This document shows, one piece after another, positions 1,898 to 34,168 of a stretch of 34,168 nt of DNA (within the stretch, counting starts at the first letter, position 1; each line of letters starts with the position of its first letter). Origin of the DNA: a virus (Duplodnaviria; Heunggongvirae; Uroviricota; Caudoviricetes); the IMG/VR virus record IMGVR_UViG_3300045996_000667, positions 91,546-125,713 of that record. One strand, written 5' to 3'. The notes under the pieces were generated by a model. The model searched no databases. It was given only the letters and a program-made list of their open reading frames with translations, and was not told the DNA's origin. Made by a program: the position numbers and the translations under genes.

Positions 1898-1919
1898 GTG
1901 TATGCTGCCACTGCGGGTG

Positions 1920-2198: not shown

Positions 2199-2207
2199 TG
2201 CTCTTTC

Positions 2208-2242
2208 AAGGAGAGAGGGGCTAGCCGTTGCCGACTAGCCCC
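2208..2242 (-). terminator. Intrinsic terminator-like hairpin after the major capsid gene
   Basis: Minus strand GGGGCTAGTCG-GCAA-CGGCTAGCCCC (11-bp stem, GNRA loop) followed by TCTCTCCTT. Confidence 0.6.
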
Positions 2243-2252
2243 GTGTCAGTTA

Positions 2253-3218: not shown

Positions 3219-3231
3219 TGCTGTAACTCCT

Positions 3232-3250
3232 TACACAAATGACTTGTGTA
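3232..3250. promoter_or_regulatory. Operator-like palindrome TACACAA-N5-TTGTGTA abutting the capsid SD
   Basis: Perfect 7-5-7 inverted repeat in the 45-bp scaffold/capsid gap; member of the YACAC-N9-GTGTA family. Confidence 0.65.
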
Positions 3251-3263
3251 TAATGTGTGTGCT

Positions 3264-4049: not shown

Positions 4050-4109
4050 TTGATTCAGTTCCTATCTAGTTCCACTTGCGTGGGCCGCGCTAACCGGCGC
4101 GTACGGGTT

Positions 4110-5840: not shown

Positions 5841-5940
5841 TATCGCCTATAGTCATAGTGACAGCACCTCCTCGTAACTGGCAGGGGTGTGAGAGCTATG
5901 TCCTATTCTGTCAACCTATTAGATTGATAGTTCGTGAAAA

Positions 5941-7293: not shown

Positions 7294-7303
7294 TGAGTCT
7301 TAA

Positions 7304-22044: not shown

Positions 22045-22073
22045 TTGACAGGCGAGCCGATCCCTGATACTCT
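22045..22073 (+). promoter_or_regulatory. Sigma70-like promoter of the right arm
   Basis: TTGACA-17-TACTCT; a near-match operator TACAC-N9-GTGCA (22113-22131) lies just before the AAGGAG SD. Confidence 0.65.
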
Positions 22074-22143
22074 TAGTATGGAGTGGCGCGGTTTTACGAA
22101 GGGCACACGTGATACACAAGCACTACGTGCAGAAGGAGTTGCG

Positions 22144-22983
22144 ATGCCAGAAACTGAAAAGTCTCGTCAGATAGCCGAACCGAACATTATCCTAAGAGTC
22201 GAGGTTGGTTCGACTGTCCACGGCGTCAGCCTCGAGGGAACCGACGACCGTGACGAGATGGGTGTGTGCCTTGAACCGCCGCACTACGTGGTCGGCCTCG
22301 GCTCCTTCGACCACTGGCAGTACCGGACAGCGCTGGAAAGGATGAAGGCAGCCCGAGAGGCCGGACAGGTCTTCCCACCTGACTACACACCTCGGTCAGA
22401 GCCTGGCGACCTTGACCTGATTGTCTATAGCCTGCGCAAGTGGGTCAGGATGGCTCTTAAGGGCAACCCGTCTGCCATGATGCTCCTCTTCTCACCAAAG
22501 TGCATCCACATCGATAAGTTCGGTGAGGAGCTGAGAAAGCTGGCACCCGCGTTCGCCTCTAAGAAGGTTGGCAAGGCGTATCTAGGGTATATGACCCAAC
22601 AGAAGGAGCGCCTGCTCGGCAAGCGTGGTCAGAGGGATGTCACGCGCAGGGAGCTGATCGACAAGTATGGCTTCGACACGAAGTACGCCTACCATGTCCT
22701 GCGCCTCGGCTATCAGGGCACTGAGTACATGGTGACAGGCTCTCTCGACCTGCCATTGGCTGACCATATCCGTCAGCACCTTCTCGATGTCAGGACTGGC
22801 AAGGTTACGCTGGTGAAGGTCGTGCAGGAGGCTGACGCCATCGAGAATCAATTGGAACTGCTGCTCGATGCCAGCCCGCTGCCAGACGAGCCACACACTG
22901 CCATCGTTGACCAGTTTGTCCAGGATGCCTACGCTGAGCACTGGGGCTGGTACCCTGATGCCGCTGTCAGGAACATGCGATGA
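22144..22983 (+). CDS. Pol-beta superfamily nucleotidyltransferase (RlaP/YcgL-like)
   Basis: AAGGAG SD before ATG 22144; 'VGSTVHG...DDRDEMGV', 'YSLRKWVRMALKGNP', 'DTKYAYHVLRL'. Confidence 0.85.
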   Translation: MPETEKSRQIAEPNIILRVEVGSTVHGVSLEGTDDRDEMGVCLEPPHYVVGLGSFDHWQYRTALERMKAAREAGQVFPPDYTPRSEPGDLDLIVYSLRKWVRMALKGNPSAMMLLFSPKCIHIDKFGEELRKLAPAFASKKVGKAYLGYMTQQKERLLGKRGQRDVTRRELIDKYGFDTKYAYHVLRLGYQGTEYMVTGSLDLPLADHIRQHLLDVRTGKVTLVKVVQEADAIENQLELLLDASPLPDEPHTAIVDQFVQDAYAEHWGWYPDAAVRNMR

Positions 22984-23165
22984 CTGACAAGAACCTAGAG
23001 TTCTTCGCTGCTCTTGAATGCTACTACCCTCTCCAACAGCCGTGCAAGTCCTGCTATAAGCCAGGCTATGGCCACTACAGCATAAGCAGGATATGCGTCT
23101 CGTGTTATCACGCTAACGTGATACATCGCGTAGAAGAATGCGATATCTGCGGATGGAAACTCTAG
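22980..23165 (+). CDS. Small Zn-finger protein, EF[FW] family member 1
   Basis: MTDKNLEFFAAL...CKSC...H...CVSCYH...CDIC; ATGA-coupled. Confidence 0.65.
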   Translation: MTDKNLEFFAALECYYPLQQPCKSCYKPGYGHYSISRICVSCYHANVIHRVEECDICGWKL

Positions 23166-23347
23166 ACAAGAACGCAGAGTTCTTTATAGCGCTGCACGAC
23201 TTCCCGCGCCTAAAATTTCCGTGCTACAACTGCCACCAGCACGGGAATACTCATTGGGTCTGGGATGCCCAATGCGTCTCGTGTTATCACGACATAATGC
23301 GATCAGTCGGGGCTACGCAATGTCTAATATGCCTAGTGAGCCTGTAG
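23153..23347 (+). CDS. Small Zn-finger protein, EF[FW] family member 2 (paralog of the previous gene)
   Basis: METLDKNAEFFIAL...CYNC...H...CVSCYH...CLIC. Confidence 0.65.
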   Translation: METLDKNAEFFIALHDFPRLKFPCYNCHQHGNTHWVWDAQCVSCYHDIMRSVGATQCLICLVSL

Positions 23348-23577
23348 ACGAGTTCTGGGACGCGGTCGGGGCCACGTGGGCGAAGCTGCAATGCGGCCGA
23401 TGCGCTGGCGTGACGCCGTGGCGAATCACTGGAAATCCTTCTGGCTACGCCTTCGACTGCGCCTGTACCGTCTGCGGCCAATTTGGAATCTGGCCAAAAG
23501 AGCTATGGAAGATCATGGTAGAGAACGACTTGGACGATGTCGGTGTTGCGAGGCTTATGCTTAAAGATAGACTGTAG
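23329..23577 (+). CDS. Small Zn-finger protein, EF[FW] family member 3
   Basis: MPSEPVDEFWDAV...CGRC...CACTVC; alternative start ATG 23320. Confidence 0.6.
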   Translation: MPSEPVDEFWDAVGATWAKLQCGRCAGVTPWRITGNPSGYAFDCACTVCGQFGIWPKELWKIMVENDLDDVGVARLMLKDRL

Positions 23578-23584
23578 AAAGGCC

Positions 23585-23613
23585 TTGACATACACAGTTT
23601 CCTTGTGTATAGT
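23585..23613 (+). promoter_or_regulatory. Sigma70 promoter with an embedded operator, upstream of RNR
   Basis: TTGACA-17-TATAGT; spacer carries TACAC-N9-GTGTA (23591-23609). Confidence 0.85.
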
Positions 23614-23672
23614 GTGTGCATCCTGATTTTCATGTGGTCAGGACGAGTGGTTAATGCTGCCACTGCACGCTT

Positions 23673-23710
23673 GGGCGGTAGGAAGGCCGAATCCTGCCGC
23701 CCTTCTTTAT
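23673..23710 (+). terminator. Intrinsic terminator/attenuator in the RNR leader
   Basis: GGGCGGTAGGA-N8-TCCTGCCGCCC (11 bp, one G-U) followed by TTCTTTAT. Confidence 0.7.
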
Positions 23711-23741
23711 CTTTGCACATTGTGCAACCGGACTCGTATTC

Positions 23742-25721
23742 GTGATCATAGACCTGAAGCCTGAACAGCGGTTCTCGCTTTCTGCCAATTTCCTAGAAGA
23801 ATTCAAAACCAAGCAGCCGGACTGGGGTCCGGTCGGACTTATTACCTACAAGCGCACCTACGCCCGCCCTCTGCCAGATGGCCGATCTGAAGATTGGTGG
23901 CAGACCTGTAAGCGAGTGGTCGAAGGTGTCTACACTATCCAGCACTGGCACTGTGACCGCCTGAATCTCGAGTGGAAGCCTCGCAAGGCTCAAGCCTCGG
24001 CTCAGGAGATGTACCGCCTGATGTTCGACATGAAGTTCCTCCCGCCTGGCCGTGGCCTATGGATGATGGGAACTGACTACGTCTACCAGAATGGCGGGGC
24101 TGCCCTCAATAACTGCGCCTTCACCACCACTGAGCACATCGCTCAGGACTTCGCAGAACCGTTCTGCTTCCTGATGGACATGTCCATGCTCGGCGTCGGC
24201 GTCGGCGGCGACACGATGGGCAGCGGAACGTTCGTCGTAGCTAAGCCTCGTGAGAGTCAGGACACGCTCACCTACGTCATCGCAGACACGCGCGAGGGCT
24301 GGGTGGACTCCGTCCGAATGCTCCTGAAGGCCTTTGACGGCGATCGGATGCCGATCTTCGACTACAGCCAGATTCGTCCGCTCGGAGCGCCAATCAAGGG
24401 CTTCGGTGGCACAGCTGCTGGCCCTGAGCCGCTGCGGCGTTGTCACGAGATGCTGACAGCGTTGCTCACCCGACGCATCGGTCACGCTATCACCACGGCT
24501 GACATCGTTGACATCTTCAACATCATTGGCGTCTGCGTCGTCGCCGGCAACGTTCGCCGGTCAGCCGAGGTCATGCTCGGTGAGCTGGACGATCAGGAGT
24601 TCCTGAACGTTAAGAACCCTGACAAGTTCCAGGCAGAACTGATGTCGCATCGCTGGATGTCGAACAACTCAGTCACTGTCAACGTTGGCAGCGACTACAG
24701 GACGGTGGCAGGCCTCACAGCCAAGAACGGCGAGCCTGGCTACCTCTGGATGGACACGTGCAAGGCCTACGGGCGCCTGCAGGACCCGCCAGATTGGAAG
24801 GACAAGCGCGCCGTTGGCTCCAATCCATGTCTCGAGCAGACGCTTGAGAACTACGAACTGTGCTGTCTTGTCGAGACGTTCCCGTCGCGTCACGACTCCT
24901 ACGAGGAATACCAGCGCACTCTGAAGTTCGCCTACCTCTACGCCAAGACGGTTACGCTGATCCCGACGCACAACAAGAAGACCAACCGCGTCATGATGCG
25001 CAACCGCCGCATCGGCTGTTCGCAGTCTGGAATCATCCAGTCCATGGCGAAGCACGGTCGACGCAAGCACCTCAACTGGTCGGACGATGGCTATCGCTAC
25101 ATCCAGCACATGGACGAGGTCTACTCGGACTGGCTGGCCATCCCTCGCAGCATCAAGACCACGTCTGTCAAGCCGTCAGGCACGGTCAGCCTCCTACCAG
25201 GAGTGACACCAGGTATTCACTACGAGCACGCTGAGTACTACTTCAGGACTATCAGGATTGCCAAGATCAGCCCGCTGATCGCCCCGCTCCAAGAAGCTGG
25301 CTACCCGATAGAGGACGACAAGTATGACAGCAGCTCTTACGTCGTCTACTTCCCTATCAAGGCTCAACACTTTGACAGGGCCAAGAGCGATGTCAGCATG
25401 TGGGAGCAGCTCGAGAACGCGGCCGCCATGCAGTACTACTGGGCTGATAATCAGGTCAGTATCACCGTTACGTTCAAGCCTGAAGAGGCCAAGGACATTC
25501 AGCGAGCGCTGGAGATGTATGAGTCGCGCCTCAAGAGCGTGTCCTTCCTACCAGCCGAGGATCATGGCTACGTGCAGGCTCCTTATCAGACGCTTTCCCA
25601 GGAAGTGTACGAATTCTGGTCAAGTCGACTGAAGCCGCTGGTTCTGACCGACAACGTCCACGAGACGGAAGACAAGTTCTGTGACGGCGACAAGTGCGTG
25701 TTGCCGGGAGGACAACAGTGA
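23742..25721 (+). CDS. nrdJ: Class II (adenosylcobalamin-dependent) ribonucleotide reductase, monomeric RTPR-like
   Basis: 'KFLPPGRGLW', 'NNCAF', 'GNVRRSAE', 'GSNPCLEQ', 'CCLVE', 'TSVKPSGT', C-terminal 'FCDGDKC'; no small subunit nearby. Confidence 0.95.
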   Translation: MIIDLKPEQRFSLSANFLEEFKTKQPDWGPVGLITYKRTYARPLPDGRSEDWWQTCKRVVEGVYTIQHWHCDRLNLEWKPRKAQASAQEMYRLMFDMKFLPPGRGLWMMGTDYVYQNGGAALNNCAFTTTEHIAQDFAEPFCFLMDMSMLGVGVGGDTMGSGTFVVAKPRESQDTLTYVIADTREGWVDSVRMLLKAFDGDRMPIFDYSQIRPLGAPIKGFGGTAAGPEPLRRCHEMLTALLTRRIGHAITTADIVDIFNIIGVCVVAGNVRRSAEVMLGELDDQEFLNVKNPDKFQAELMSHRWMSNNSVTVNVGSDYRTVAGLTAKNGEPGYLWMDTCKAYGRLQDPPDWKDKRAVGSNPCLEQTLENYELCCLVETFPSRHDSYEEYQRTLKFAYLYAKTVTLIPTHNKKTNRVMMRNRRIGCSQSGIIQSMAKHGRRKHLNWSDDGYRYIQHMDEVYSDWLAIPRSIKTTSVKPSGTVSLLPGVTPGIHYEHAEYYFRTIRIAKISPLIAPLQEAGYPIEDDKYDSSSYVVYFPIKAQHFDRAKSDVSMWEQLENAAAMQYYWADNQVSITVTFKPEEAKDIQRALEMYESRLKSVSFLPAEDHGYVQAPYQTLSQEVYEFWSSRLKPLVLTDNVHETEDKFCDGDKCVLPGGQQ

Positions 25722-25903
25722 CAACGGCTGACTGGGCTTCGCTTCTGTCAGGCCTGCTCTGCCTGATGTTTGCTGCCATCTTTACGTTTCAAGATCCTAG
25801 GCTCTCATGGCTCTGCTATTCGGCGGGCATGTGGTGCTGCCAGGTCGCCTTAGCCGAAGTTCAGATAGAACACGAGAAACACAACAGTGAAACAACATCC
25901 TGA
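25718..25903 (+). CDS. Small membrane protein (61 aa)
   Basis: GTGA overlap with the RNR stop; two hydrophobic segments. Confidence 0.55.
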   Translation: MTTADWASLLSGLLCLMFAAIFTFQDPRLSWLCYSAGMWCCQVALAEVQIEHEKHNSETTS

Positions 25904-26189
25904 CGAAGACCGTTGGCCTTGGCCGACTGATATTACATTCCAGATTCGCCAACATCCCGGCAGCAAGGACCACATCTATGTCGGATACGAGGCGGTCTGG
26001 TACGGCGAGCTGAGGACCAAGTGGGTCAAGCTTTACGCACCATGGCGGTCACGGCTCGACAACGAGCTTCTCGTCGGCGTGCTAATCAATCTAACAGAGG
26101 ATGCCAGGACTATGCACAAGTCGCTGACCCTCAACAACGAGGACGGAAATAGTGGAACAGCAAGCGCAGAACCAGACGCCGCAGTTTAG
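25887..26189 (+). CDS. Hypothetical protein (100 aa)
   Basis: ORF in the dense plus-strand run. Confidence 0.55.
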   Translation: MKQHPDEDRWPWPTDITFQIRQHPGSKDHIYVGYEAVWYGELRTKWVKLYAPWRSRLDNELLVGVLINLTEDARTMHKSLTLNNEDGNSGTASAEPDAAV

Positions 26190-26400
26190 CGTCGACATCG
26201 TGGCAACCGGCATCCTGATCACCATTCCAGAGGGAGTGCAGATCATGGCTGGCGACGTCAGGAACGTGCTGGAATCGGTCAGGGACATCATGGTGACCTA
26301 CGCCACCCTGCAGATCGAGGAAAAGGCTCTAGAAGCTGCGGATGCTGCGGAAGCTGCAGCGCACGCTGACGCGATCGCTCGAAACCCCAGCGCAGAGTGA
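26152..26400 (+). CDS. Hypothetical protein (82 aa)
   Basis: GAGGA SD; ORF in the dense run. Confidence 0.55.
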   Translation: MEQQAQNQTPQFSVDIVATGILITIPEGVQIMAGDVRNVLESVRDIMVTYATLQIEEKALEAADAAEAAAHADAIARNPSAE

Positions 26401-26401
26401 A

Positions 26402-26875
26402 GTGAAGAATCTGTACAGCCAACTGAGGCTGGTCCCGCTGACGCTCAGGGAAGCTAACGCTTTCGTTGAGCAATTTCACCGCCACCACAAGCCGTCTCGA
26501 GGGCACAAGTTCTCGATCGGCGCGGTGGTTGGTGATGATCAGCTCGTCGGCGCTGTTATTGTTGGCAGACCGGTAGCTCGTGCGGTAAACTGGAAGGAAG
26601 TCGCAGAAGTCAACAGGCTGGTAACCGATGGCACGCCGCATGTGTGCTCCATGCTCTATGCGGCAGCCGCTCGTGCGTGCAGAGCTATGGGCTACCACAA
26701 GATACACACGTATATTTTGCAATCTGAACCTGGCACTAGCCTGAAAGCTGCTGGGTGGCACAAAGAGGGCGATACAGTCGGCGGGGACTGGAATTGCCCA
26801 GGACGTAAGGGTCCTCGCAGAACTGATCAACCTATGGAGCCCAAGCAACGCTGGGCAAAGGTGCTTAACCCATGA
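26402..26875 (+). CDS. XF1762-family / Mom-like GNAT DNA-modification protein
   Basis: 'ANAFVEQFHRHHKP..GHKFSIG...VGAVIVGRPVAR...EVNRLVTDGTPHVCSMLY...GY..I.TYIL.SEPGTSLKAAGW'; GTG 26402 follows the upstream stop. Confidence 0.8.
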   Translation: MKNLYSQLRLVPLTLREANAFVEQFHRHHKPSRGHKFSIGAVVGDDQLVGAVIVGRPVARAVNWKEVAEVNRLVTDGTPHVCSMLYAAAARACRAMGYHKIHTYILQSEPGTSLKAAGWHKEGDTVGGDWNCPGRKGPRRTDQPMEPKQRWAKVLNP

Positions 26876-27027
26876 GCGAATGGCATAACTGCTACGTATG
26901 CGACGAAGACTGCACGTGCGGCGCACACTTCCAGAGTGATTGCGCGGGCTGCGGTGCCTGCAACGATAGCTTCGGGTACGACGACTACGACGACGACGAC
27001 TACGACGACTACGACGAGCGGTGGTAG
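26872..27027 (+). CDS. Cys-rich microprotein with a Tyr/Asp tail (51 aa)
   Basis: Not in the ORF track. Hand translation MSEWHNCYVCDEDCTCGAHFQSDCAGCGACNDSFGYDDYDDDDYDDYDERW; ATGA-coupled; next ATG follows its stop directly. Confidence 0.65.
   Translation: MSEWHNCYVCDEDCTCGAHFQSDCAGCGACNDSFGYDDYDDDDYDDYDERW
26977..27018. repeat. Trinucleotide-type repeat (TAC/GAC)
   Basis: TAC GAC GAC TAC GAC GAC GAC GAC TAC GAC GAC TAC GAC GAG. Confidence 0.9.
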
Positions 27028-27222
27028 ATGAAGTTCGAACTCAACGAGCGCGAACAGGAAACCGCCAAGAAGTGGCGTCATCCCTGCTGGCCCAAGAAAC
27101 AAGCCAAAGCGCACAATCCTGAGTACACCTTCGGCAACGGCAGCGGCATAGGCCGTCACGTATACATTCGCTGCATGCAGTGCGGCGTCACAAAAGACAT
27201 CACAGATTACGAGAGCTGGTAA
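27028..27222 (+). CDS. Small Zn-ribbon-like phage protein
   Basis: 'GSGIGRHVYIRCMQCGVTKDITDYESW' conserved phage-type C-terminus. Confidence 0.7.
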   Translation: MKFELNEREQETAKKWRHPCWPKKQAKAHNPEYTFGNGSGIGRHVYIRCMQCGVTKDITDYESW

Positions 27223-28025
27223 TGATCGTCCTCTATCACGGTTCGTGTCCAGACGGCTTCGGGGCCGCTTGGGCTGCACACATGTTCAATGAAGCTGCTG
27301 TGCTCATGCCTGTCATGCACGGTCAGGACCCACCCACCCTGCCCTACGGTGCTAAGGTGTACATGCTGGACTTCTCCTACAAGCGGCCAGTCATGGAGAA
27401 GCTGGCAGCGATGGTCGACCTGACCGTCATTGACCATCACAAGACAGCGCAAGCAGAACTGGCAGGTTTCCCGAACTGCACGTTCGACATGACCAAGTCC
27501 GGCGCTGTCCTCGCCTACGAGCACTTCTTCCCAGGCTGCCGCCTGCCAATCCTGCTCGAATACATTCAGGATCGAGACATCTGGCAGTGGAAGATGCCTG
27601 ATAGCACTGCCGTGTGCGCCTACATCGACTCATACGAGTGGACGATCGGCAACTTCAACTTCCTGCAGTATCAGATTGCCAGCCACTTCCGTGACGTCGT
27701 GACGGCGGGCAACGCTATCCTGCGCTATCAGGAACAGCAGACACGACAGGGCGCTAGGAATGCCATCTTTACCAACGTTGGCGGCCACCTAGTGCCTGTG
27801 GTCAACGCTGCCATGGGTTCTCAGGTCGCCATGAGGCTCTGTGAGCTCCATCCAGAGGCCAAGTTCGCCTGCTACTACTTCGACAGGCCGGACGGGAAGC
27901 GCCAGTGGGGCCTGCGCTCCAATAACGGCTTCGACGTGTCGGAGATTGCCAAGGCCTACGGAGGCGGCGGGCACGCAGCAGCTGCCGGCTTCGAAACCAG
28001 CACACCGAGTTTTCTAGATGTTTAG
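27222..28025 (+). CDS. DHH/DHHA1 family phosphoesterase
   Basis: 'YHGSCPDGFGAAW', 'LDFSY', 'IDHHK', 'DRDIW', 'GGGGHAAAAGF'; TAATG-coupled start at 27222. Confidence 0.9.
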   Translation: MIVLYHGSCPDGFGAAWAAHMFNEAAVLMPVMHGQDPPTLPYGAKVYMLDFSYKRPVMEKLAAMVDLTVIDHHKTAQAELAGFPNCTFDMTKSGAVLAYEHFFPGCRLPILLEYIQDRDIWQWKMPDSTAVCAYIDSYEWTIGNFNFLQYQIASHFRDVVTAGNAILRYQEQQTRQGARNAIFTNVGGHLVPVVNAAMGSQVAMRLCELHPEAKFACYYFDRPDGKRQWGLRSNNGFDVSEIAKAYGGGGHAAAAGFETSTPSFLDV

Positions 28026-28275
28026 ACGAGACAAATATTTTTTTCTCGGCGGGAACGAAAAACACCTCAGTATCACGATCTGGAGACTCGAGTGGACCTT
28101 CTTTGACTGGACTCTATCCTGGCGAACCAAGGAACAGGCATTCGAGTCATGGAAGGCTTTGTTCTCCCTGCGTTGCACAATGTGCAGAGCATGGACGCTC
28201 GGCTGCGGTGAGCACCGCTTCTGCGGGCTGTGCGAGCCGTGCAAGGTGAGCGTAGAGGGCGACATCAATGACTGA
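28018..28275 (+). CDS. Hypothetical Cys-rich protein (85 aa)
   Basis: 'CTMC...C..H..C..C..C'; overlapping coupling. Confidence 0.55.
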   Translation: MFRRDKYFFLGGNEKHLSITIWRLEWTFFDWTLSWRTKEQAFESWKALFSLRCTMCRAWTLGCGEHRFCGLCEPCKVSVEGDIND

Positions 28276-28669
28276 CCTGCCGAAGTTCAATCTCTGGCTG
28301 GACGACGTCCGCGATCCAAGCATGTTCGGCTGCATTGGCTGGTACTGGGTCAAGACTGTCGAAGAGGCCAAGGAACAGATCCTGTCAGGCCGAGTAGCGC
28401 ATGCCAGCCTTGACCATGACCTCGGAGCCTGCCCAACCTGCCTAGACGGCAAGACTGAAATCGAGTGGATGGAGGCCAACAACTGGCAGTCCATGCCAAA
28501 CTGCAACCACTTCGGGACCGGCTACGACTTTTGCCTGTGGATGGCAGAAACTGGCAACTGGCCAGAGCATAAACCAACTGTTCATTCTGCTAACCCTGTC
28601 GGCCGCGACAGGATGCGCGGAGTGATTGACAGGTATTTCCCAAAGGATAACAGCAATGATGACAACTGA
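28268..28669 (+). CDS. Cyclic-phosphate processing receiver-domain protein
   Basis: 'LWLDDVRDP', 'VKTVEEA', 'SLDHDLG', 'TGYDFCLWM', 'VHSANPVGRDRM'. Confidence 0.85.
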   Translation: MTDLPKFNLWLDDVRDPSMFGCIGWYWVKTVEEAKEQILSGRVAHASLDHDLGACPTCLDGKTEIEWMEANNWQSMPNCNHFGTGYDFCLWMAETGNWPEHKPTVHSANPVGRDRMRGVIDRYFPKDNSNDDN

Positions 28670-28769
28670 CGGCTGGGTGCCCAGCCCTGACAACGACTAC
28701 AAGACTGAACTGGTCAACAAACCGCCTGTTCCCAATCCGGACGAGCCTGAGACGCCTGAAGGCGAATGA
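28656..28769 (+). CDS. Small Pro/acidic protein (37 aa)
   Basis: AAAGGA SD; hand translation MMTTDGWVPSPDNDY...; ATGA-coupled to the next ORF. Confidence 0.4.
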   Translation: MMTTDGWVPSPDNDYKTELVNKPPVPNPDEPETPEGE

Positions 28770-28915
28770 GCTACCGGGTAGCCAACAGCACCATCGTCCA
28801 AGGATGGACCATTCGATGCGGCGTTTGCGGCTTCAGGGGGCCGTATAACGCCACTGAGTGGTGGCACCACCTTATGCGAAAGTGCCGAGAGGCCATGAAG
28901 GGCAGGATGTATTGA
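28766..28915 (+). CDS. Small Zn-finger-like protein (49 aa)
   Basis: MSYRVANSTIVQGWTIRCGVCGFRGPYNATEWWHHLMRKC... Confidence 0.5.
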   Translation: MSYRVANSTIVQGWTIRCGVCGFRGPYNATEWWHHLMRKCREAMKGRMY

Positions 28916-28961
28916 GGATAACCTCCAGATACCCTGCCCGTAGACAGCCAGAAAAAAGTTC

Positions 28962-28989
28962 TTGACCTCGTGCGTGGGCGCCCTATACT
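28962..28989 (+). promoter_or_regulatory. Sigma70-like promoter
   Basis: A-tract, then TTGACC-16-TATACT, 24 nt before ATG 29014. Confidence 0.65.
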
Positions 28990-29013
28990 CAGATCGCAAG
29001 GAGCTAACAGCAC

Positions 29014-29499
29014 ATGGCAAGAACCTACCGTCAGCGTGGAACCAATCAGCAGTATCCCAGCATCGGCGGCATCAACCTCATGAGCTACGCCAAGGCGCAG
29101 GTCATGGACCAGATCACCAGGCTGCAGGCCGAACTCGACGGCCCGCTGCGCAACGTGGAACTGCCGCCGCACTACTCGCCGGTCAACATTCCTGTCCTCA
29201 AGCCGATTCGCTCGGGAGCGGCTCCGGTCGAGCGTCCCGGTCGAGCGAAGCCCCAGATGAGCGCCGCTGCTCGCAAGCGCATCTCCGAGGCTCAGAAGAA
29301 GCGCTGGGCAGCCCGCAACGCTGCTCATGCCGCAGTGGTCAATCAGGCCGCTGGAGGCACGGATGAGGCACAAGCCGCCGAGACAGGCGGCACAGAGGCC
29401 GTAGCCGAGACTGCGGCCCCTGACGCCGCTCCGAAGCGCGGTCGCCAGCGTGGGGCAGCAAAGGGCGCAAAGCGCGGGCGCAAACCCGCTCAGGCCTAA
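29014..29499 (+). CDS. Histone-like/nucleoid-associated basic protein
   Basis: AAGGAG SD; coiled coil, then 'MSAAARKRISEAQKKRWAA' and a K/R/A-rich tail. Confidence 0.65.
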   Translation: MARTYRQRGTNQQYPSIGGINLMSYAKAQVMDQITRLQAELDGPLRNVELPPHYSPVNIPVLKPIRSGAAPVERPGRAKPQMSAAARKRISEAQKKRWAARNAAHAAVVNQAAGGTDEAQAAETGGTEAVAETAAPDAAPKRGRQRGAAKGAKRGRKPAQA

Positions 29500-29504
29500 C
29501 AAAC

Positions 29505-29541
29505 AAGGCCGATCATCGCGAGGTGGTCGGCCTTTACTTTT
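29505..29541 (+). terminator. Rho-independent terminator
   Basis: AAGGCCGATCATC-GCGA-GGTGGTCGGCCTT (GNRA loop, G-U pairs fit the + strand) followed by TACTTTT. Confidence 0.85.
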
Positions 29542-29544
29542 GCC

Positions 29545-29573
29545 TTGACACACACAGAAACCTTGTGTATCGT
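29545..29573 (+). promoter_or_regulatory. Sigma70 promoter with an embedded operator, driving the NAD operon
   Basis: TTGACA-17-TATCGT; spacer carries CACAC-N9-GTGTA (29551-29569). Confidence 0.8.
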
Positions 29574-29606
29574 GTTCGTAGTACCAATTCTGAAAGGATT
29601 CCTTTA

Positions 29607-29792
29607 ATGGAAGACGTCGAACTTGACGTAGTCGTCCGACTGCGTGCAAATCCCAACACCATGATCAGCCCTGACGCCATCGGACAGGTGATTGGAGAGT
29701 CCATCAACGATCTGTACAAGCGCCGCCACGTCGAAGCTGCCGTAATCTGCGAAGAGGTTGACATCGACGGTGAGGCAGTCTGGGTTAGGTAA
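29607..29792 (+). CDS. Hypothetical protein (61 aa)
   Basis: AAAGGA SD before ATG 29607. Confidence 0.6.
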   Translation: MEDVELDVVVRLRANPNTMISPDAIGQVIGESINDLYKRRHVEAAVICEEVDIDGEAVWVR

Positions 29793-29953
29793 TGAGCATC
29801 ATCCGCCCTGATCGCATCAGAAACGTCACAAAGCACGATCTGGCAAAAATTGCCAAGCTGCTCACGCTTGTCGAGCACAACGCCGCCGACATCGCCGTCC
29901 AGCTCGAGGCTCGCAAGTACATCGACATGCTGCGAGAGATGTTCGAAGAATGA
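29792..29953 (+). CDS. Hypothetical protein (53 aa)
   Basis: Hand translation MSIIRPDRIRNVTKHDLAKIAKLL...; TAATG and ATGA coupling. Confidence 0.6.
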   Translation: MSIIRPDRIRNVTKHDLAKIAKLLTLVEHNAADIAVQLEARKYIDMLREMFEE

Positions 29954-30312
29954 TAGGCCTCCTGTTTGTAATACTGCTTGCCCTAGTGTACCTGTCCATC
30001 GTTGCAGATAGGCACACATCGAAGCTTGGCGAGCGAGTCAAAGACGTCGAGGCCACTAACAAGCGCATATTAGAGGCTATCCAACTGCAAGTCGCTCTGA
30101 ACGCTGACACCGAAAAGCGATTCAAGAACGTCGAAGCCAAGGGTGATACGGCGCAGCGCTCCATCTCTAGACTGGCCACCAACGTCAATGATTCCCTGTC
30201 AGTGGCTCAGCACAATGACGCAGAACTGCTAGCAGCTATCAAGCAACTGGCAGAAAAGACAGCTGAGCACTCGCTCCTCCTCATTCCGGAGAAAAAGATT
30301 GGCCATGCTTAA
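29950..30312 (+). CDS. Membrane-anchored coiled-coil protein
   Basis: N-terminal hydrophobic helix, then heptad-like charged region. Confidence 0.6.
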   Translation: MIGLLFVILLALVYLSIVADRHTSKLGERVKDVEATNKRILEAIQLQVALNADTEKRFKNVEAKGDTAQRSISRLATNVNDSLSVAQHNDAELLAAIKQLAEKTAEHSLLLIPEKKIGHA

Positions 30313-31195
30313 CGGCGTAGGCGTGATTATCGCCAGGTTTCAAGTCCCAGAGCTGACGTCGAATCACAAGGCACTGATCAAGCACGTCTCAAGCCGACAC
30401 GACGACGTTCTGGTGCTTCTCGGATGCGGCGCTCCAAGCAAGCGAAACCCGTTGCCGTTCCGTCTCCGCGAACAGATGGTGAACGAGCAGGGTTTAGCCA
30501 TTACCGTGCTGCCCATTCAAGACGGGCCTAGCGACGAGGAGTGGTCCCAGCGTGTCGACGGCATCATCTCAACGATCTACCCGTTTCGGTCTGTCACCAT
30601 CTACGGTGGCCCAGGAAGCTTCATCCCTCACTACAAGGGGCACTTTACGACTGAGGAAGTTGCCAGCTTCGATGGCGAGAGCGGGAATGAACTGCGCCAC
30701 GAAGTCCTCGAAAGCCAAGGCTACGGACAGGACTTCCGCCGTGGCGTGATCTGGTCACAGATGGCGCGCTTTGACAGGGCCTATCCGGTCGTTGACATCG
30801 CTATCTACGACCGTGATGCTGACGCCTTTCTGATGGCGCGCAAGCCTGTCGAAGCCAATACAACAGGGTATCGATTCATAGGAGGGTTCGTTGACCCGCG
30901 TGACTCTAGCCTTGAAGATGCGGCGATCAGAGAGACGAAAGAAGAGACAGGAGCTACGATTTCTGCTCCTACATATATTGGCAGCGTCAGGATCGATGAC
31001 TGGCGCTATCGCGGCTCAGGCGACGGGATTATCTCGTCAGTCTTCCTAGCAGACTTCGTTCCGACGCTTGATCGTGTCAAACCCAACGACGACATCATCA
31101 CGTTGAGGTGGGTTCCTAGGTGCAACCTGACCTATGAGGTCCTGCCGGTGCATGAGGGCGTTGCCAACCTCGTTCTGGAGAAGTTCCGCCGATGA
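30299..31195 (+). CDS. nadM: Bifunctional NMN adenylyltransferase / Nudix hydrolase (NadM-Nudix type)
   Basis: 'ARFQV', 'SKRNPLPFRLREQM', 'FRRGVIW', Nudix box 'GGFVDPRDSSLEDAAIRETKEETG', 'DDWRYR'. Confidence 0.9.
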   Translation: MAMLNGVGVIIARFQVPELTSNHKALIKHVSSRHDDVLVLLGCGAPSKRNPLPFRLREQMVNEQGLAITVLPIQDGPSDEEWSQRVDGIISTIYPFRSVTIYGGPGSFIPHYKGHFTTEEVASFDGESGNELRHEVLESQGYGQDFRRGVIWSQMARFDRAYPVVDIAIYDRDADAFLMARKPVEANTTGYRFIGGFVDPRDSSLEDAAIRETKEETGATISAPTYIGSVRIDDWRYRGSGDGIISSVFLADFVPTLDRVKPNDDIITLRWVPRCNLTYEVLPVHEGVANLVLEKFRR

Positions 31196-32589
31196 TGTTC
31201 TCGTTTCCTGAGAAGACGGACAGCTACAAGGTATCGCACTACCGGCAGTACCCGCCTGGGACGACCTGCGTCTACTCGTACTTCGAGTCTCGCGGCGGCG
31301 TTTACCCTGACACGACCTTCTTTGGTCTGCAGGGAATGCTCAAGGACCACTTCGTCGGCCAGGTCCTTACACAGCCTGACATCGATGAGGCCGCTGACCT
31401 GTACGGTGAGCATTTCGGAGATCCTAACCTGTTTAACAGGGCTGGTTTCGAGCACATCGTGAACGACCACGGCGGCCATCTCCCGCTGTCCATCAGGGCC
31501 GTTCCTGAGGGCACGACAGTGCCTGTTAGCAATGTCCTGATGACAGTCGAGAACACCTGTCCGAAGTGCTACTGGCTGACCAACTTCGCAGAGACGCTGC
31601 TCGTCCAGAACTGGTACCCGACGACTGTCGCCACCCAGAGCCGACACCTGAAAAAGCTGATCCACAAGTGGCTGGTCCGCAATGGCACTCCTGAAGAGAT
31701 CGGCTTCAAGCTGCACGACTTCGGATTCCGAGGTGTCTCGAGCGTTGAGAGCGCGGCGATCGGCGGCGCTGCCCACCTTGTCAACTTCCTCGGAACCGAC
31801 ACCGTCGTAGCCCTCCGCTACCTGCGTCGGCGTTACGGCATCCGATGCGCTGGCTTCTCAGTGCCGGCGGCTGAGCACTCGACAATCACGTCTTGGGGCC
31901 GCGAGTTCGAAGCGCAGGCCTGCGACAACATGCTGGTGCAGTACCCGAAGGGCATCGTGGCTGTCGTCTCGGACTCCTATGACGTCTTTAACGCCTGCGA
32001 CAATATCTGGGGTGGCTCCCTCGTTAAGCGCGTCATGGCGAGGCCAGGAGTACTCGTCGTGAGGCCTGACAGCGGAACCCCAGAGGAAGTGGTCAGTCGA
32101 TGCGTCCACAGCTTCTACAACAACCCGCAAGTCGGCGGAACCGTGAATCAAAAGGGTTCCAAGGTGATATCGCCCAAGGTTCGGATCATTCAAGGCGACG
32201 GAGTCGACGGCGGTGCAATCGACGGGATCTACAGCCGCCTGCATTCAGAGGGCTTCTCGTCAGACAACGTCGGTTACGGGATGGGCGGCGCGCTGCTTCA
32301 GAAGCTGGACCGGGACACCCAGAAGTTCGCGTTCAAGTGCAGCCAGGTCGCCGGCCACTTCGGCTCCAGGGACGTCTACAAGGACCCCATCACCGACAGC
32401 GGCAAGCGCTCGAAGCGCGGGCGCCTAGCCCTGCGCAAGGGCATGTTGCATGAAGGCTTCTGGACGGACTCCCAGCAGAACAACCTGCTCAGAGATCGCG
32501 GTTCTGACCAGTTGGTAGAAGTGTTCAGGGATGGCCAGCTGCTAGTCGATGACAGCTTTGACAAGATCCGTGAACGCGCAGCCATCTGA
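31192..32589 (+). CDS. nadV: Nicotinamide phosphoribosyltransferase (NAMPT)
   Basis: 'TDSYKVSH', 'YFESRGG', 'LHDFGFRG', 'PAAEHS', 'VSDSYD', 'RPDSG', 'IQGDG', 'GMGGALLQ'. Confidence 0.95.
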   Translation: MMFSFPEKTDSYKVSHYRQYPPGTTCVYSYFESRGGVYPDTTFFGLQGMLKDHFVGQVLTQPDIDEAADLYGEHFGDPNLFNRAGFEHIVNDHGGHLPLSIRAVPEGTTVPVSNVLMTVENTCPKCYWLTNFAETLLVQNWYPTTVATQSRHLKKLIHKWLVRNGTPEEIGFKLHDFGFRGVSSVESAAIGGAAHLVNFLGTDTVVALRYLRRRYGIRCAGFSVPAAEHSTITSWGREFEAQACDNMLVQYPKGIVAVVSDSYDVFNACDNIWGGSLVKRVMARPGVLVVRPDSGTPEEVVSRCVHSFYNNPQVGGTVNQKGSKVISPKVRIIQGDGVDGGAIDGIYSRLHSEGFSSDNVGYGMGGALLQKLDRDTQKFAFKCSQVAGHFGSRDVYKDPITDSGKRSKRGRLALRKGMLHEGFWTDSQQNNLLRDRGSDQLVEVFRDGQLLVDDSFDKIRERAAI

Positions 32590-32800
32590 CGAGTTCTTTG
32601 CAGCCCTGATACCAGGCCTAGGCTGTTCATACTGCCGCGACACCAAAATCTGGCCATACGCCTCAACAATGACGTCATGGGGCCGCCGATGGGCCTGTTC
32701 AAGATGTCTCCGGACTGTCAGGAACACCAACAATTTTATCAGTCTGGACAACGCTGTCCTTAAGTTTAAAGACGATGCCAAAGCCGGACAATTCGAATAG
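32570..32800 (+). CDS. Small Zn-finger protein, EF[FW] family member 4
   Basis: (M)NAQPSDEFFAAL...CSYC...CSRC; GTG 32570 or ATG 32549. Confidence 0.55.
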   Translation: MNAQPSDEFFAALIPGLGCSYCRDTKIWPYASTMTSWGRRWACSRCLRTVRNTNNFISLDNAVLKFKDDAKAGQFE

Positions 32801-33014
32801 AACCTACCTCGAATGCCCATGCTGTGGGTGCGAGGGAGCTGAGTCAGACGCTGACGGCCTGTTCAACGACGGCCAGGAACTCATCTGCGGATGCCCTGGC
32901 TGGGTGACAGCCGATGGAGACGGCGATGAAAGCTGGGCGTGGATCAATACCGGCGACGAGCCGTGCCAGCAATGCGAGGGCGAGTGTCAGACGAATTCTG
33001 GGACGAACTCCTAA
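32775..33014 (+). CDS. Acidic Cys-rich protein (79 aa)
   Basis: 'CPCCGC', 'CGC', 'CQQC'. Confidence 0.55.
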   Translation: MPKPDNSNRTYLECPCCGCEGAESDADGLFNDGQELICGCPGWVTADGDGDESWAWINTGDEPCQQCEGECQTNSGTNS

Positions 33015-33226
33015 GTCTAAAGATCTGGTGCGCCAGATGTAATAGGCAGACCAAGCACCTTCCAAGCCAGTTACCAACACTCTCGCCATACAGGGATTAC
33101 GAACGGTACGACTGCTCTAACTGCAACTGCACGTGGGTACTGGTAAAAGGTGAAGAGGTTCTGCATCAGAACACGGGCTGGAGACACAGCATCGACTTCG
33201 GGCACGACATCAATTGGGGCGAGTAA
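32984..33226 (+). CDS. Small Zn-finger protein, EF[FW] family member 5
   Basis: GTG 32984 after GAGGG: MSDEFWDELL...CARC...CSNC. Confidence 0.6.
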   Translation: MSDEFWDELLSLKIWCARCNRQTKHLPSQLPTLSPYRDYERYDCSNCNCTWVLVKGEEVLHQNTGWRHSIDFGHDINWGE

Positions 33227-33519
33227 TGAACTGGGACTACCACAAGCAGCGCCTACTGGACGGCAAGACCACGTCATTTCGGCCTAAGGGCAACAGCATG
33301 GCTCCTCGCATCCTGTCCGGCCAGCTCGTCGTCCTCGAGCCTGCGCACGAGACGTACATCGAGGTTGGCGACGTAGTCTTCTGCAAGGTCGGTGGCAACT
33401 TCTATGTCCACCTTGTCAAGGCTATCCAGGATGGCAGGTTCCTCATAGCCAACAACAGAGGCCACATCAACGGCTGGACAAAGGCCGTCTATGGCAAGCT
33501 GAAACTCCTAATGCCATGA
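33226..33519 (+). CDS. S24/S26 peptidase-like small protein
   Basis: 'GNSMAPRILSGQLV', 'VGDVVFCKV'; TAATG-coupled. Confidence 0.7.
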   Translation: MNWDYHKQRLLDGKTTSFRPKGNSMAPRILSGQLVVLEPAHETYIEVGDVVFCKVGGNFYVHLVKAIQDGRFLIANNRGHINGWTKAVYGKLKLLMP

Positions 33520-33920
33520 AAGTGCTCTGTTGCGGTAGCAGAAACTGGAGCCTGAGGACGCCTATCCAAAGGGCCCTGTCAAACCTGAAGAACTATGATG
33601 GAGGCGATGATCGTGACCTGTTCTTCCAGTCGCTGGACATCACTCACATCGAGATAGTGCATGGCAACGCTCTCGGCGCTGATTCGCTCTGCGACTACTA
33701 CGCGCGAAAACTAGGCTACCTCGTTCACCGCCACTCGGCAGACTGGAAAAAGCACGGCAAGGCTGCCGGTCCTATCAGGAACCAGGAAATGCTTGATAAG
33801 CATCCTGACATCTGCCTTGTGCTGGCATTCTCTTGGAATCTGTCAGAAAGCAAAGGCACGGCTGACATGGTTCGCAGGGCCACGAAGAAAGGCATCCCTG
33901 TCAAGGTTATCAGTGGCTGA
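33516..33920 (+). CDS. SLOG superfamily (YspA/DUF2493-like) nucleotide-binding protein
   Basis: 'CGSRNW', 'IVHGNALGAD', 'ADWKKHGKAAGPIRNQEM', 'SKGTADM'. Confidence 0.85.
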   Translation: MKVLCCGSRNWSLRTPIQRALSNLKNYDGGDDRDLFFQSLDITHIEIVHGNALGADSLCDYYARKLGYLVHRHSADWKKHGKAAGPIRNQEMLDKHPDICLVLAFSWNLSESKGTADMVRRATKKGIPVKVISG

Positions 33921-34125
33921 CAACGACGAGTTCTTCTTCAGCCTCATAGAATCAATTGGTGGATGCCAGATAGTGGAAGCATATTGCCCGCGCTGCAAGG
34001 CCATGGGGGATCACGACAAGAAGCTCTACGGAGAGCCTCTTAGGTGTGCATACCTTTGCCGCCGCTGTGGGCTTCTAGAAGACTTGCCAAACTCGAAATT
34101 CCTAACATATGGACAGTTCTACTAG
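33913..34125 (+). CDS. Small Zn-finger protein, EF[FW] family member 6
   Basis: GTG 33913: MADNDEFFFSL...CPRC...CRRC. Confidence 0.6.
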   Translation: MADNDEFFFSLIESIGGCQIVEAYCPRCKAMGDHDKKLYGEPLRCAYLCRRCGLLEDLPNSKFLTYGQFY

Positions 34126-34168
34126 TTCCGAGGAATTCTTCGGCGCATTGGCGATTAGGCTGAACGTC
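34109..34168 (+). CDS. Partial ORF, EF[FW] family member 7, runs off the right edge
   Basis: ATG 34109: MDSSTSSEEFFGALAIRLNV..., overlapping the end of the previous member. Confidence 0.45.
   Translation, partial: MDSSTSSEEFFGALAIRLNV

What the first reader, a model, noticed from the sequence alone, without database searches (positions are those of the whole stretch)
22980..34168. Dispersed family of seven small ORFs sharing an N-terminal acidic E-F-[F/W]-x-x-hydrophobic motif
Seen: 22980 KNLEFFAAL, 23153 KNAEFFIAL, 23329 VDEFWDAV, 32570 SDEFFAAL, 32984 SDEFWDEL, 33913 NDEFFFSL and 34109 SEEFFGAL (truncated by the window edge). The motif lies within about 10 residues of the start, and in the six complete genes it is followed by otherwise divergent CxxC...CxxC domains. 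The DNA is also similar (GACGAGTTCT at three sites, GACGAATTCT, GAGTTCTT). The genes cluster beside the nucleotidyltransferase/RNR and the NAD/SLOG counter-defence genes. Inference: either (a) a common docking peptide that delivers variable Zn-finger effector heads to one hub protein (adaptor or anti-defence array), or (b) a short DNA homology used to shuffle gene cassettes. The GAG/GAA synonymous variation mildly favours (a). I know of no described system with this signature.
Basis: partly seen in the sequence, partly recalled or inferred. Interest (0 to 1): 0.75.

Follow-up and report, generated by a model that had tools for sequence, protein, structure and literature searches.

The report
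Tagged zinc-ribbon gene family in phage
The seven small genes are real and belong to a family of about 45 tiny zinc-ribbon proteins in one uncultured soil phage; all begin with the same short helix (S-E-E-F-F-x-A-L), which probably docks them to one shared partner that is still unidentified.

Summary
All seven motifs lie at the stated coordinates, 4-13 codons after a start codon on the + strand. The six complete genes carry CxxC...CxxC, and so does the full-length copy of the seventh. Shuffled sequence gives 0.05 such ORFs against 6 complete ones observed.

The window is the last 34 kb of a 125.7-kb viral contig. That contig holds about 43-46 tagged ORFs, and a family profile matches 44 places. 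The window's last four copies are probably the start of the large array at the contig's other end.

Synonymous codons vary freely in the tag: four Ala and five Leu codons. Paralogues share too little DNA for recombination, so selection acts on the peptide. The tag also heads bodies of other families (an L7/L12-like fragment, a phrog_11912 C-terminal part). Untagged Cys-rich ORFs exist too, so the tag is modular.

AlphaFold predicts a helix that is less confident than the ribbon. No reader was found.

The family is nearly private: 4 foreign homologues among 1.84 billion representatives, none in the closest cultured phage.

The scan had already described this family from other windows of this same genome (e1-5442073, e1-5442079, e1-1860776, e1-5442074). 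New here: a one-cassette indel between the contig ends, and faster divergence of tagged genes than of their neighbours.

The parts
22980..23165 (+). Tagged zinc-ribbon gene P_a, 61 aa. Tag K-N-L-E-F-F-A-A-L with Glu at 22998; three CxxC pairs.
   Evidence: The family profile matches here with E 8e-7.
23153..23347 (+). Tagged zinc-ribbon gene P_b, 64 aa (alternative start 23138). Tag K-N-A-E-F-F-I-A-L; three CxxC pairs. It overlaps the end of P_a and is its closest paralogue.
   Evidence: Profile E 8e-8.
23320..23577 (+). Tagged zinc-ribbon gene P_c, 85 aa (alternative start 23329). Tag V-D-E-F-W-D-A-V; CGRC...CTVC, followed by a C-terminal helical extension.
   Evidence: Profile E 1.5e-13. AlphaFold model: helix at residues 9-15 (pLDDT about 70), four-stranded ribbon at 20-59 (pLDDT about 90).
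32558..32800 (+). Tagged zinc-ribbon gene P_d, 80 aa (alternative starts 32549 and 32570). Tag S-D-E-F-F-A-A-L; CSYC...CSRC. It overlaps the end of the NAMPT gene.
   Evidence: Profile E 1e-11.
32972..33226 (+). Tagged zinc-ribbon gene P_e, 84 aa (alternative start 32984). Tag S-D-E-F-W-D-E-L; CARC...CSNC.
   Evidence: Profile E 1e-14. Its copy at the contig start is only 67% identical in protein, yet the tag is kept.
32978..32989 (.). Indel junction. These 12 nt stand where the copy at the contig start (genome 190-388) carries one extra complete tagged cassette of 65 aa that begins M-N-S-E-E-F-F-A-A-L.
   Evidence: blastn of the contig ends. Window 32789-32977 equals genome 1-189 at 97.9% identity; window 32990-34168 equals genome 389-1567 at 87.4%.
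33913..34125 (+). Tagged zinc-ribbon gene P_f, 70 aa. Its GTG start overlaps the SLOG gene's stop codon. Tag N-D-E-F-F-F-S-L; CPRC...CRRC.
   Evidence: Profile E 4e-10. Against its contig-start copy it is 83% identical in protein with dN/dS 0.29, and the changes cluster just after the tag.
34109..34168 (+). The first 20 codons of tagged gene P_g, cut by the contig end. Tag S-E-E-F-F-G-A-L. The identical copy at genome 1508-1735 is 75 aa with CPRC...CEKC.

Best explanation
The seven ORFs are real protein-coding genes. They belong to one lineage-specific, heavily amplified family (about 45 copies) of 43-101-residue proteins in an uncultured tailed phage that carries an integrase gene. Its closest cultured relative infects Acidobacteriota. 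Each protein has three parts: a 4-13-residue leader, an invariant amphipathic helix (consensus D/T-K-S-E-E-F-F/W-x-A-L), and, mostly after a 6-9-residue linker, a Cys4 zinc ribbon whose sequence has diverged almost to randomness.

Shown: the family exists; the tag is kept by selection on the peptide, not on the DNA; the tag is modular; and cassettes are gained and lost one gene at a time.

Inferred: the helix is a common handle whose F, F/W, A and L face inserts into a groove of a single shared partner, either a phage or a host hub. The diversified ribbons would then supply different binding specificities. On this view the family is an array of adaptors or inhibitors made from the + strand module that also carries the DNA-metabolism, NAD-salvage and RNA-repair genes. 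The partner was not identified.
For: Reality of the genes:
- Motif position beats chance: 6 complete ORFs against 0.05 expected.
- The profile matches 44 places in the genome.
- Purifying selection acts between the two copies of P_f (dN/dS 0.29).
- Four foreign homologues keep both D-K-S-E-E-F-F-x-A-L and the four Cys.
- AlphaFold gives a confident ribbon, pLDDT 87-94.

Peptide-level selection:
- Glu uses GAG 30 times and GAA 15 times.
- The second Phe position uses TTC 28, TTT 12 and TGG 7 times.
- Ala uses four codons and Leu five, close to background usage.
- The seven window tags share only GA(R)TTCT(K).

Invariance beyond what a fold core needs:
- The first Phe is kept in 47 of 47 copies, Glu in 45 of 47 and Leu in 43 of 47, with no Leu/Ile/Met/Tyr swaps, while every non-Cys position of the body is free.

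Modularity:
- The tag heads a protein whose body matches only the C-terminal third of phrog_11912 (E 1e-7).
- It heads a protein with a ribosomal L7/L12 C-terminal-domain fragment (35.5 bits, above Pfam's cut-off).
- It heads Cys-free proteins of 109 and 124 aa.
- Untagged Cys-rich mini-ORFs lie in the same window and do not match the profile.

Structure:
- In both models the tag helix is markedly less confident than the ribbon: 58-72 against 86-94.

Divergence:
- Tagged genes diverge faster than their neighbours. Between the two end copies P_e is 67% and P_f 83% identical in protein, against 96% for the S24-like gene and 92% for SLOG.
Against: No partner was found, so docking remains an inference.
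- The linker from tag to first Cys is mostly 6-9 residues (27 of 36 ribbons). That would also suit a helix packing on its own ribbon.
- In the smallest members (43-57 aa) the tag supplies most of the large hydrophobic residues, so it may be part of the mini-core.
- No coordinates were available to check helix-ribbon contacts in the models.
- Related 'address tag' readings elsewhere in this scan were later priced at only 10-13%.
- The family is almost confined to one genome, so co-occurrence with a candidate reader cannot be tested.
Confidence: 0.42

Rival explanations
1. The helix is simply an integral part of one small fold, packing on its own zinc ribbon. The family is an ordinary paralogous expansion with no common partner. 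Tags on other bodies arose by occasional recombination or decay.
For: The linker length is fairly constant, with a mode of 7 residues. The architecture is the same in most members. Very small members need the tag's hydrophobic residues for any core. No reader was found. A precedent exists: the Bacillus phage G zinc-ribbon expansion also keeps one terminal helix.
Against: The invariance is extreme and allows no conservative swaps, while the rest of the core drifts. The tag occurs on non-ribbon bodies with independent homology. The linker ranges from 4 to 13 residues. The helix has lower pLDDT than the ribbon in both models.
Confidence: 0.27
2. The tag is a capsid-targeting (T4 CTS-like) or ejection signal. 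Tagged proteins would be loaded into proheads through the scaffold and delivered with the DNA as first-line counter-defence proteins.
For: It follows the same logic as the T4 internal proteins: a roughly 10-residue N-terminal peptide conserved on otherwise diverse, fast-evolving small proteins (PMC3012670, PMC9026906). The phage has a portal - scaffold-like - major-capsid module.
Against: No prohead protease gene was seen between portal and capsid genes among the ORFs scanned. No conserved L/I-x-E cleavage motif follows the tag. Tagged genes lie on the strand opposite to the structural module, among DNA-metabolism genes. The proteins are mostly mildly acidic, with a median pI of 5.6. About 45 cargo species would be unprecedented.
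Confidence: 0.1
3. The conserved element acts at the nucleic-acid level, either as a recombination homology for cassette shuffling or as a translation-initiation or coupling signal in the first codons.
For: One cassette indel has its borders at a start codon and a tag. Genes overlap tightly and mostly lack Shine-Dalgarno sequences. The first Phe codon is TTC in 47 of 47 copies against 84% in background.
Against: All the other tag codons vary synonymously. Shared DNA is only about 8 nt in the window. Only four paralogue pairs share 30 nt or more. Foreign homologues keep the peptide.
Confidence: 0.06
4. The tag is a leader recognised by a modifying or processing enzyme, in the manner of a RiPP system: one leader and many Cys-rich cores. 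Alternatively it is a degron that sets a short half-life.
For: The logic of one conserved N-terminal peptide with hypervariable Cys-rich C-terminal parts resembles multi-precursor RiPP systems (my own knowledge of prochlorosins, not tested here). A MoxR-type AAA protein and a DUF2201 metallopeptidase/VWA pair lie among tagged genes at genome 30770-33250.
Against: The bodies are confidently predicted as folded zinc ribbons. No radical-SAM, LanM, YcaO or RRE protein turned up among the roughly 50 larger ORFs scanned. The tag also heads non-Cys proteins.
Confidence: 0.05

Closest known systems
Lineage-specific expansion of about 35 zinc-ribbon genes in Bacillus phage G (Iyer et al. 2021, PMC7824862)
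   Same: Tens of small zinc-ribbon paralogues sit in one phage genome. I saw that its members gp32, gp34, gp35, gp37 and gp46 also keep one terminal helix (Y-W-K-E-N-D-R-Y-L-A-K) next to a variable remainder.
   Different: The two families are not homologous: the family profile finds only two marginal places in phage G, with a best E of 0.005. The conserved helix is C-terminal there and N-terminal here. Here the tag also occurs on non-ribbon proteins. The function is unknown in both; the authors suggest transcription factors or DNA-binding proteins.
Capsid-targeting sequence (CTS) of phage T4 internal proteins IPI, IPII and IPIII (PMC3012670; PMC9026906)
   Same: A short N-terminal peptide of about 10 residues is conserved on otherwise diverse, fast-evolving small phage proteins, and it is transferable between bodies.
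   Different: The T4 CTS is a propeptide cut by the gp21 prohead protease after L/I-x-E, and it binds the scaffold core. Here no prohead protease and no cleavage motif were found, the genes sit outside the late module, and there are about 45 copies rather than 3-4.
FFAT motif (E-F-F-D-A-x-E) of eukaryotic VAP-binding proteins (PMC7610837)
   Same: The core letters E-F-F-(D/E/Q/A)-A are preceded by acidic residues.
   Different: This is a look-alike only. FFAT position 7 is acidic, whereas here it is A/T/G/I, and position 6 here is a fixed Leu. FFAT binds as an extended strand to the MSP domain of eukaryotic VAP. No MSP domain is encoded by the phage. From my own knowledge, bacteria, the presumed hosts, have no VAP.
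Generic Cys4 zinc-ribbon mini-proteins (Pfam zinc-ribbon clan; unnamed Atlas clusters)
   Same: There are two CxxC knuckles 15-35 residues apart, and a three- to four-stranded ribbon is predicted.
   Different: No curated family is matched (Pfam E 0.08 or worse, PHROG E 0.0015 or worse). Foldseek finds no PDB match below E 0.4. The N-terminal tag has no counterpart.

Membership tests
Cys4 zinc ribbon | Two CxxC (or CxC) knuckles separated by a beta-hairpin-forming spacer | tested here: met
   All six complete window genes and most family members have them. AlphaFold predicts paired strands with pLDDT 87-94.
Cys4 zinc ribbon | A match to a curated zinc-ribbon family model | tested here: not met
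   Pfam finds nothing better than E 0.08. The best PHROG hit is E 0.0015, to a family of unknown function.
T4-type capsid-targeting propeptide | A short conserved N-terminal peptide on otherwise unrelated proteins | tested here: met
T4-type capsid-targeting propeptide | A prohead protease gene, and its cleavage motif (L/I-x-E) at the end of the tag | tested here: not met
   The head module reads portal, scaffold-like, major capsid, with no protease among the ORFs scanned. The positions after the tag are variable. Not every small ORF was scanned.
T4-type capsid-targeting propeptide | The proteins are present in the virion and delivered into the cell | not testable with these tools
   This needs virion proteomics.
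Phage G zinc-ribbon expansion | Sequence homology to the phage G paralogues | tested here: not met
   Searching the whole phage G record with profile A1 gave two marginal places, E 0.005 and 0.024.
Phage G zinc-ribbon expansion | Tens of zinc-ribbon paralogues within one phage genome | tested here: met
   44 profile matches in 125.7 kb.
FFAT motif | The full E-F-F-D-A-x-E core with an acidic position 7, and a VAP/MSP-domain reader | tested here: not met
   Position 7 is Glu in about 4 of 47 copies. PF00635 has no match in the phage even at E 10.
Ribosomal L7/L12 N-terminal helix mimic (my own lead) | A match of the tags to the L12 N-terminal domain model | tested here: not met
   PF16320 finds nothing in the genome at E 10. 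In the one tagged L12-like protein the tag aligns to the L12 hinge, not to its N-terminal helix.
RiPP precursor with leader | A cognate modifying enzyme or RRE domain encoded in the genome | tested here: inconclusive
   None was found among about 50 larger ORFs scanned. The genome was not scanned exhaustively.

The most novel reading that the evidence does not exclude
A phage encodes a combinatorial adaptor library. One universal N-terminal handle plugs about 45 different, rapidly diversifying zinc-ribbon binding heads, plus a few other domains, into a single reader. Many host or defence proteins could then be captured through one machine. This would be a phage counterpart of substrate-receptor families such as F-box proteins.
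Probability: 0.2. Interest if true: 0.85.

Novelty: new variant of a known kind. Interest (0 to 1): 0.6.

Why it matters
If the helix is a docking handle, this phage offers a compact natural system: about 45 binders with one address. It could be used to find a new hub of phage-host conflict and to study how binding heads diversify on a fixed handle. Together with the phage G expansion, and with similar terminal tags that this scan noted in other large phages, it suggests that 'terminal tag plus zinc ribbon' arrays are a recurrent and so far unexplained strategy of phage genomes. These small overlapping genes largely lack Shine-Dalgarno sequences, and few of this contig's own copies turned up in the protein-database searches, so gene callers may miss many of them. 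If the helix is only structural, the finding is still a striking lineage-specific expansion, but of modest general interest.

Tried and rejected
- **Homodimer test.** I tested P_c residues 1-60 as a homodimer with zinc. It gave no verdict (score 0.00, under the mark). This is evidence neither for nor against binding.
- **Foreign homologues.** P0005 and P0017 have no encoding contig on record. P0013 and P0027 lie on contigs of 701 and 567 nt for which no DNA is held, so no context could be read.
- **Word-index protein search with the family profile.** It returned only two of the genome's own proteins.
- **DNA pattern scans for the tag.** IMG/VR gave 3 hits, JGI metagenomes 4, GTDB genomes 52, and a two-tag pattern in IMG/VR 7. 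All were internal to larger proteins or out of frame, so they are chance matches.
- **Related phages through TerL in IMG/VR.** One 4.5-kb fragment was found. The profile search of the closest cultured phage, Tunturi_4, found nothing.
- **Foldseek against the PDB.** Only weak matches to generic small beta folds. Atlas look-alikes are unnamed zinc-ribbon clusters.
- **FFAT/VAP idea.** Rejected.
- **L7/L12 N-terminal-helix mimicry idea.** Rejected.
- **Large + strand 'ORFs' inside the array (genome 2021-3208 and 7041-7772).** They are antisense artefacts of a - strand integrase and a - strand methyltransferase, not hub candidates.
- **Internal E-F-F-A-A-L at genome 20867.** It lies inside a conserved phrog_22676 domain and is not a tag.
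- **D-F-F-E-S-L at window about 11148.** It lies 13 codons into a 180-aa Cys-rich ORF that I excluded from the family on inspection only; it is probably not a tag either.


Full report
**Where the window lies**

The window is the last 34,168 bases of a 125,713-base IMG/VR viral contig. The contig is linear, and CheckV estimates it as 83% complete. It is a tailed phage. Large terminase, portal, a scaffold-like protein, an HK97-type major head protein and connector proteins lie on the - strand in window 500-7300. The + strand carries helicases, a primase-helicase, methyltransferases, Ku, ligases and other enzymes. The best cultured relative by TerL is Tunturiibacter phage Tunturi_4, at only 36% identity; it is a soil phage of Acidobacteriota (PMC11924767 is listed). 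A tyrosine integrase gene lies on the - strand at genome 1922-3037, which suggests a temperate lifestyle.

**Checking the observation**

- Every site lies 4-13 codons after an ATG or GTG.
- The six complete ORFs have two or three CxxC pairs.
- The seventh ORF is cut by the contig end. Its first 20 codons are identical to a 75-aa gene at genome 1508-1735, which has CPRC...CEKC.
- The quoted DNA strings are present as stated.
- In 200 codon-block shuffles of the window, the number of ORFs with the motif near a start averaged 0.05 with a maximum of 1, against 6 complete ones observed.

**The real size of the family**

The same scan over the whole contig gives about 46 tagged + strand ORFs. A profile built from 38 of them (alignment A1) matches 44 places in the genome, 41 of them with E below 0.001. 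About 28 copies form a tight tandem array at genome 186-8789; the rest are scattered through the + strand regions.

The contig's two ends overlap. Window 32789-32977 matches genome 1-189 at 97.9% identity, and window 32990-34168 matches genome 389-1567 at 87.4%. So the window's last four tagged genes are most likely the beginning of that large array. If the ends are one locus in two variants, three genes are counted twice and the family has about 43 members.

The consensus architecture is:
- Met;
- a leader of 3-12 residues;
- the tag D/T-K-S-E-E-F-F/W-x-A-L;
- a linker, mostly 6-9 residues (range 4-13);
- CxxC, then 15-35 residues, then CxxC, then a short tail.

Outside the tag and the four Cys, mean column identity is 14%.

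**Peptide or DNA?**

Across 47 tags the codons vary as follows:
- the central Glu uses GAG 30 times and GAA 15 times;
- the second aromatic position uses TTC 28, TTT 12 and TGG 7 times;
- Ala uses all four codons;
- Leu uses five codons.

These frequencies are near those of long genes in the same genome. The one oddity is that the first Phe is TTC in all 47 copies, against 84% in background.

In the window the seven tags share only GA(R)TTCT(K), and each uses a different codon pair at the Ala and Leu positions. A self-comparison of the genome finds only four paralogue pairs with 30-71 nt of similarity around the tag, three of them among the recent trio at genome 8208, 8374 and 8589. So the conservation is selected at the protein level. 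The shared DNA is too short to be a designed recombination site.

**Is the tag modular?**

Four results indicate that it is.
1. A tagged 87-aa ORF at genome 26020-26283 matches only the C-terminal third of phrog_11912. Its residues 15-87 align to profile positions 146-226 of 226, with E 1.3e-7.
2. A tagged 134-aa ORF at genome 15947-16351 contains a fragment of the ribosomal L7/L12 C-terminal domain. It scores 35.5 bits against Pfam's cut-off of 25.9, and phmmer against PDB L7/L12 chains gives E 8e-6.
3. Tagged ORFs of 124 and 109 aa have one Cys and none, respectively.
4. Conversely, several Cys-rich mini-ORFs in this window carry no tag and do not match the profile: 26872-27027, 27028-27222, 28766-28915 and 32775-33014.

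One apparent tag, at genome 20867, is internal to a conserved phrog_22676 domain, and I removed it from the family.

**Structure**

- AlphaFold on P_c with 40 aligned members gives a helix at residues 9-15 and a four-stranded ribbon at 20-59. The pLDDT is about 70 for the tag region and 87-92 for the ribbon.
- A consensus-like array member gives a helix at residues 3-11, with pLDDT 58 for the first ten residues and 86-94 for the ribbon.
- The lower confidence of the helix fits a loosely attached element, but this is weak evidence, and I could not inspect contacts.
- Foldseek finds no PDB match below E 0.4.

**A natural experiment at the contig ends**

The two diverged copies differ by exactly one tagged cassette. 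Genome 190-388 encodes a complete 65-aa member (M-N-S-E-E-F-F-A-A-L...), where the window has 12 nt. The left border of the indel is at the cassette's start codon and the right border is at the next gene's tag.

| Segment compared between the two copies | Result |
|---|---|
| Left flank | 98% DNA identity |
| P_e | 67% protein identity; dS saturated |
| S24-like gene | 96% protein identity; dS 0.13 |
| SLOG gene | 92% protein identity; dS 0.32 |
| P_f | 83% protein identity; dN/dS 0.29; changes bunched just after the tag |

Tagged genes therefore turn over and diverge faster than their neighbours while the tag stays fixed.

**Distribution**

- A full HMM search of 1.84 billion representative proteins gave 27 hits with E up to 0.001. 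Of the 18 short hits I retrieved, 11 are this genome's own proteins and three are untagged double-ribbon proteins; the nine longer multi-stretch hits (279-1215 aa) were not examined. Only four are foreign tagged homologues, and all four keep D-K/L-S-[ED]-E-F-F-x-A-L and the Cys pairs. Two have no encoding contig on record, and the other two lie on tiny ENA contigs held without DNA.
- Degenerate DNA patterns for the tag found only chance matches in IMG/VR, JGI metagenomes and 185,579 GTDB species genomes.
- Tunturi_4 has none.

**The search for a reader**

Nothing convincing emerged.
- The head module shows no prohead protease, and the tag has no L/I-x-E cleavage site. This argues against a strict T4-CTS mechanism.
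- The tag's likeness to the eukaryotic FFAT core is superficial, and the phage has no MSP domain.
- My lead that the tag mimics the L7/L12 N-terminal helix failed.
- A MoxR-type AAA protein and a DUF2201 metallopeptidase/VWA pair (genome 30770-33250) sit among tagged genes. Tagged genes are so frequent, however, that this adjacency means little.
- A homodimer prediction gave no verdict.

- an RlaP-type nucleotidyltransferase (22045-22983);
- a class II ribonucleotide reductase (23742-25721);
- a DHHA1 phosphoesterase;
- a cREC_REC domain protein;
- a NUDIX fusion protein;
- NAMPT (31192-32589);
- a stand-alone S24-like peptidase domain (33214-33519);
- a YspA-type SLOG protein (33516-33920).

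Tagged genes are spread over the whole + strand part of the genome, so the association with these genes is not specific.

**Comparison with what is known**

The nearest described case is the roughly 35-copy zinc-ribbon expansion of Bacillus phage G (PMC7824862). I found that its members share a C-terminal helix, Y-W-K-E-N-D-R-Y-L-A-K. It is not homologous to the present family.

The nearest functional analogy is the T4 capsid-targeting sequence.

Earlier notes of this scan had already described this same family from other windows of this genome, and they reached the same reading. Similar terminal tags in other phages were noted too, and later checks priced the 'address tag' reading at about 10-13%. 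That made me keep the docking claim below even odds.

**Verdict**

The peptide-level, modular nature of the tag is well supported. Docking to one shared partner is the best explanation but is unproven (0.42). The main rival is a purely structural helix (0.27).

Noticed in passing
window 32789-34168 against genome 1-1567 (L003): The two contig ends are diverged copies of one another (98% identity, then 87%) and differ by one whole tagged cassette. They are either two strain variants joined by the assembler or a segmental duplication. dS varies from 0.13 to saturation along 1.2 kb, which suggests a mosaic history.
   Followed up: partly
window 32775-33014 (+): A 79-aa acidic, Cys-rich ORF (CPCCGC...CGCPGW...CQQCEGEC) without the tag lies between two tagged genes. 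It is 98% conserved in the contig-start copy, where it ends earlier, exactly at the start codon of the extra cassette.
   Followed up: partly
window 33214-33519 (+): A stand-alone S24 peptidase domain of 101 aa carries a G-N-S-M-A-P active-site motif and no DNA-binding domain. It resembles a pre-processed UmuD' or phage HumD (my own knowledge). It sits directly before the YspA-type SLOG gene, and both are duplicated at the contig start.
   Followed up: partly
L003:15947-16351 (+): A tagged 134-aa protein contains the factor-binding helix region of the ribosomal protein L7/L12 C-terminal domain, followed by Cys pairs. It may be a phage decoy for translation GTPases.
   Followed up: partly
L006:12740-12898 (-), genome 72740-72898: This is the only - strand copy. 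A tag (D-K-N-D-E-F-F-G-A-L-E) is fused in frame to the end of a 98-aa ORF. It is followed at once by TAA and then by W-E-V-R-C-G-C. It looks like a decayed tagged gene captured as a C-terminal extension.
   Followed up: partly
L003:8374-8463 (+): A 29-aa truncated family member lies between two close paralogues (genome 8208 and 8589). It is probably a recent pseudogene in the array.
   Followed up: no
all tags genome-wide (for example window 23001, 23180, 23353): The first Phe codon of the tag is TTC in 47 of 47 copies (background 84%). The second Phe uses TTT more often than background, Ala favours GCG and Leu favours CTA. These are small nucleotide-level biases that I could not explain.
   Followed up: partly
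window 26872-27027 (+): A 51-aa ORF has a Cys-rich head and a tail made almost only of Asp and Tyr (D-D-Y-D-D-D-D-Y-D-D-Y-D-E). It carries no tag, and no family matches it.
   Followed up: no
L072:11154-13127 (Bacillus phage G gp32-gp37): Members of the published phage G zinc-ribbon expansion share a conserved C-terminal helix, Y-W-K-E-N-D-R-Y-L-A-K. The passages of the paper that I read do not mention it. It mirrors the N-terminal tag seen here.
   Followed up: partly
L003:1922-3037 (-) and L003:6999-7727 (-): A tyrosine integrase and a class I SAM methyltransferase lie on the opposite strand inside the tagged-gene array. The long + strand ORFs over them are antisense artefacts.
   Followed up: partly
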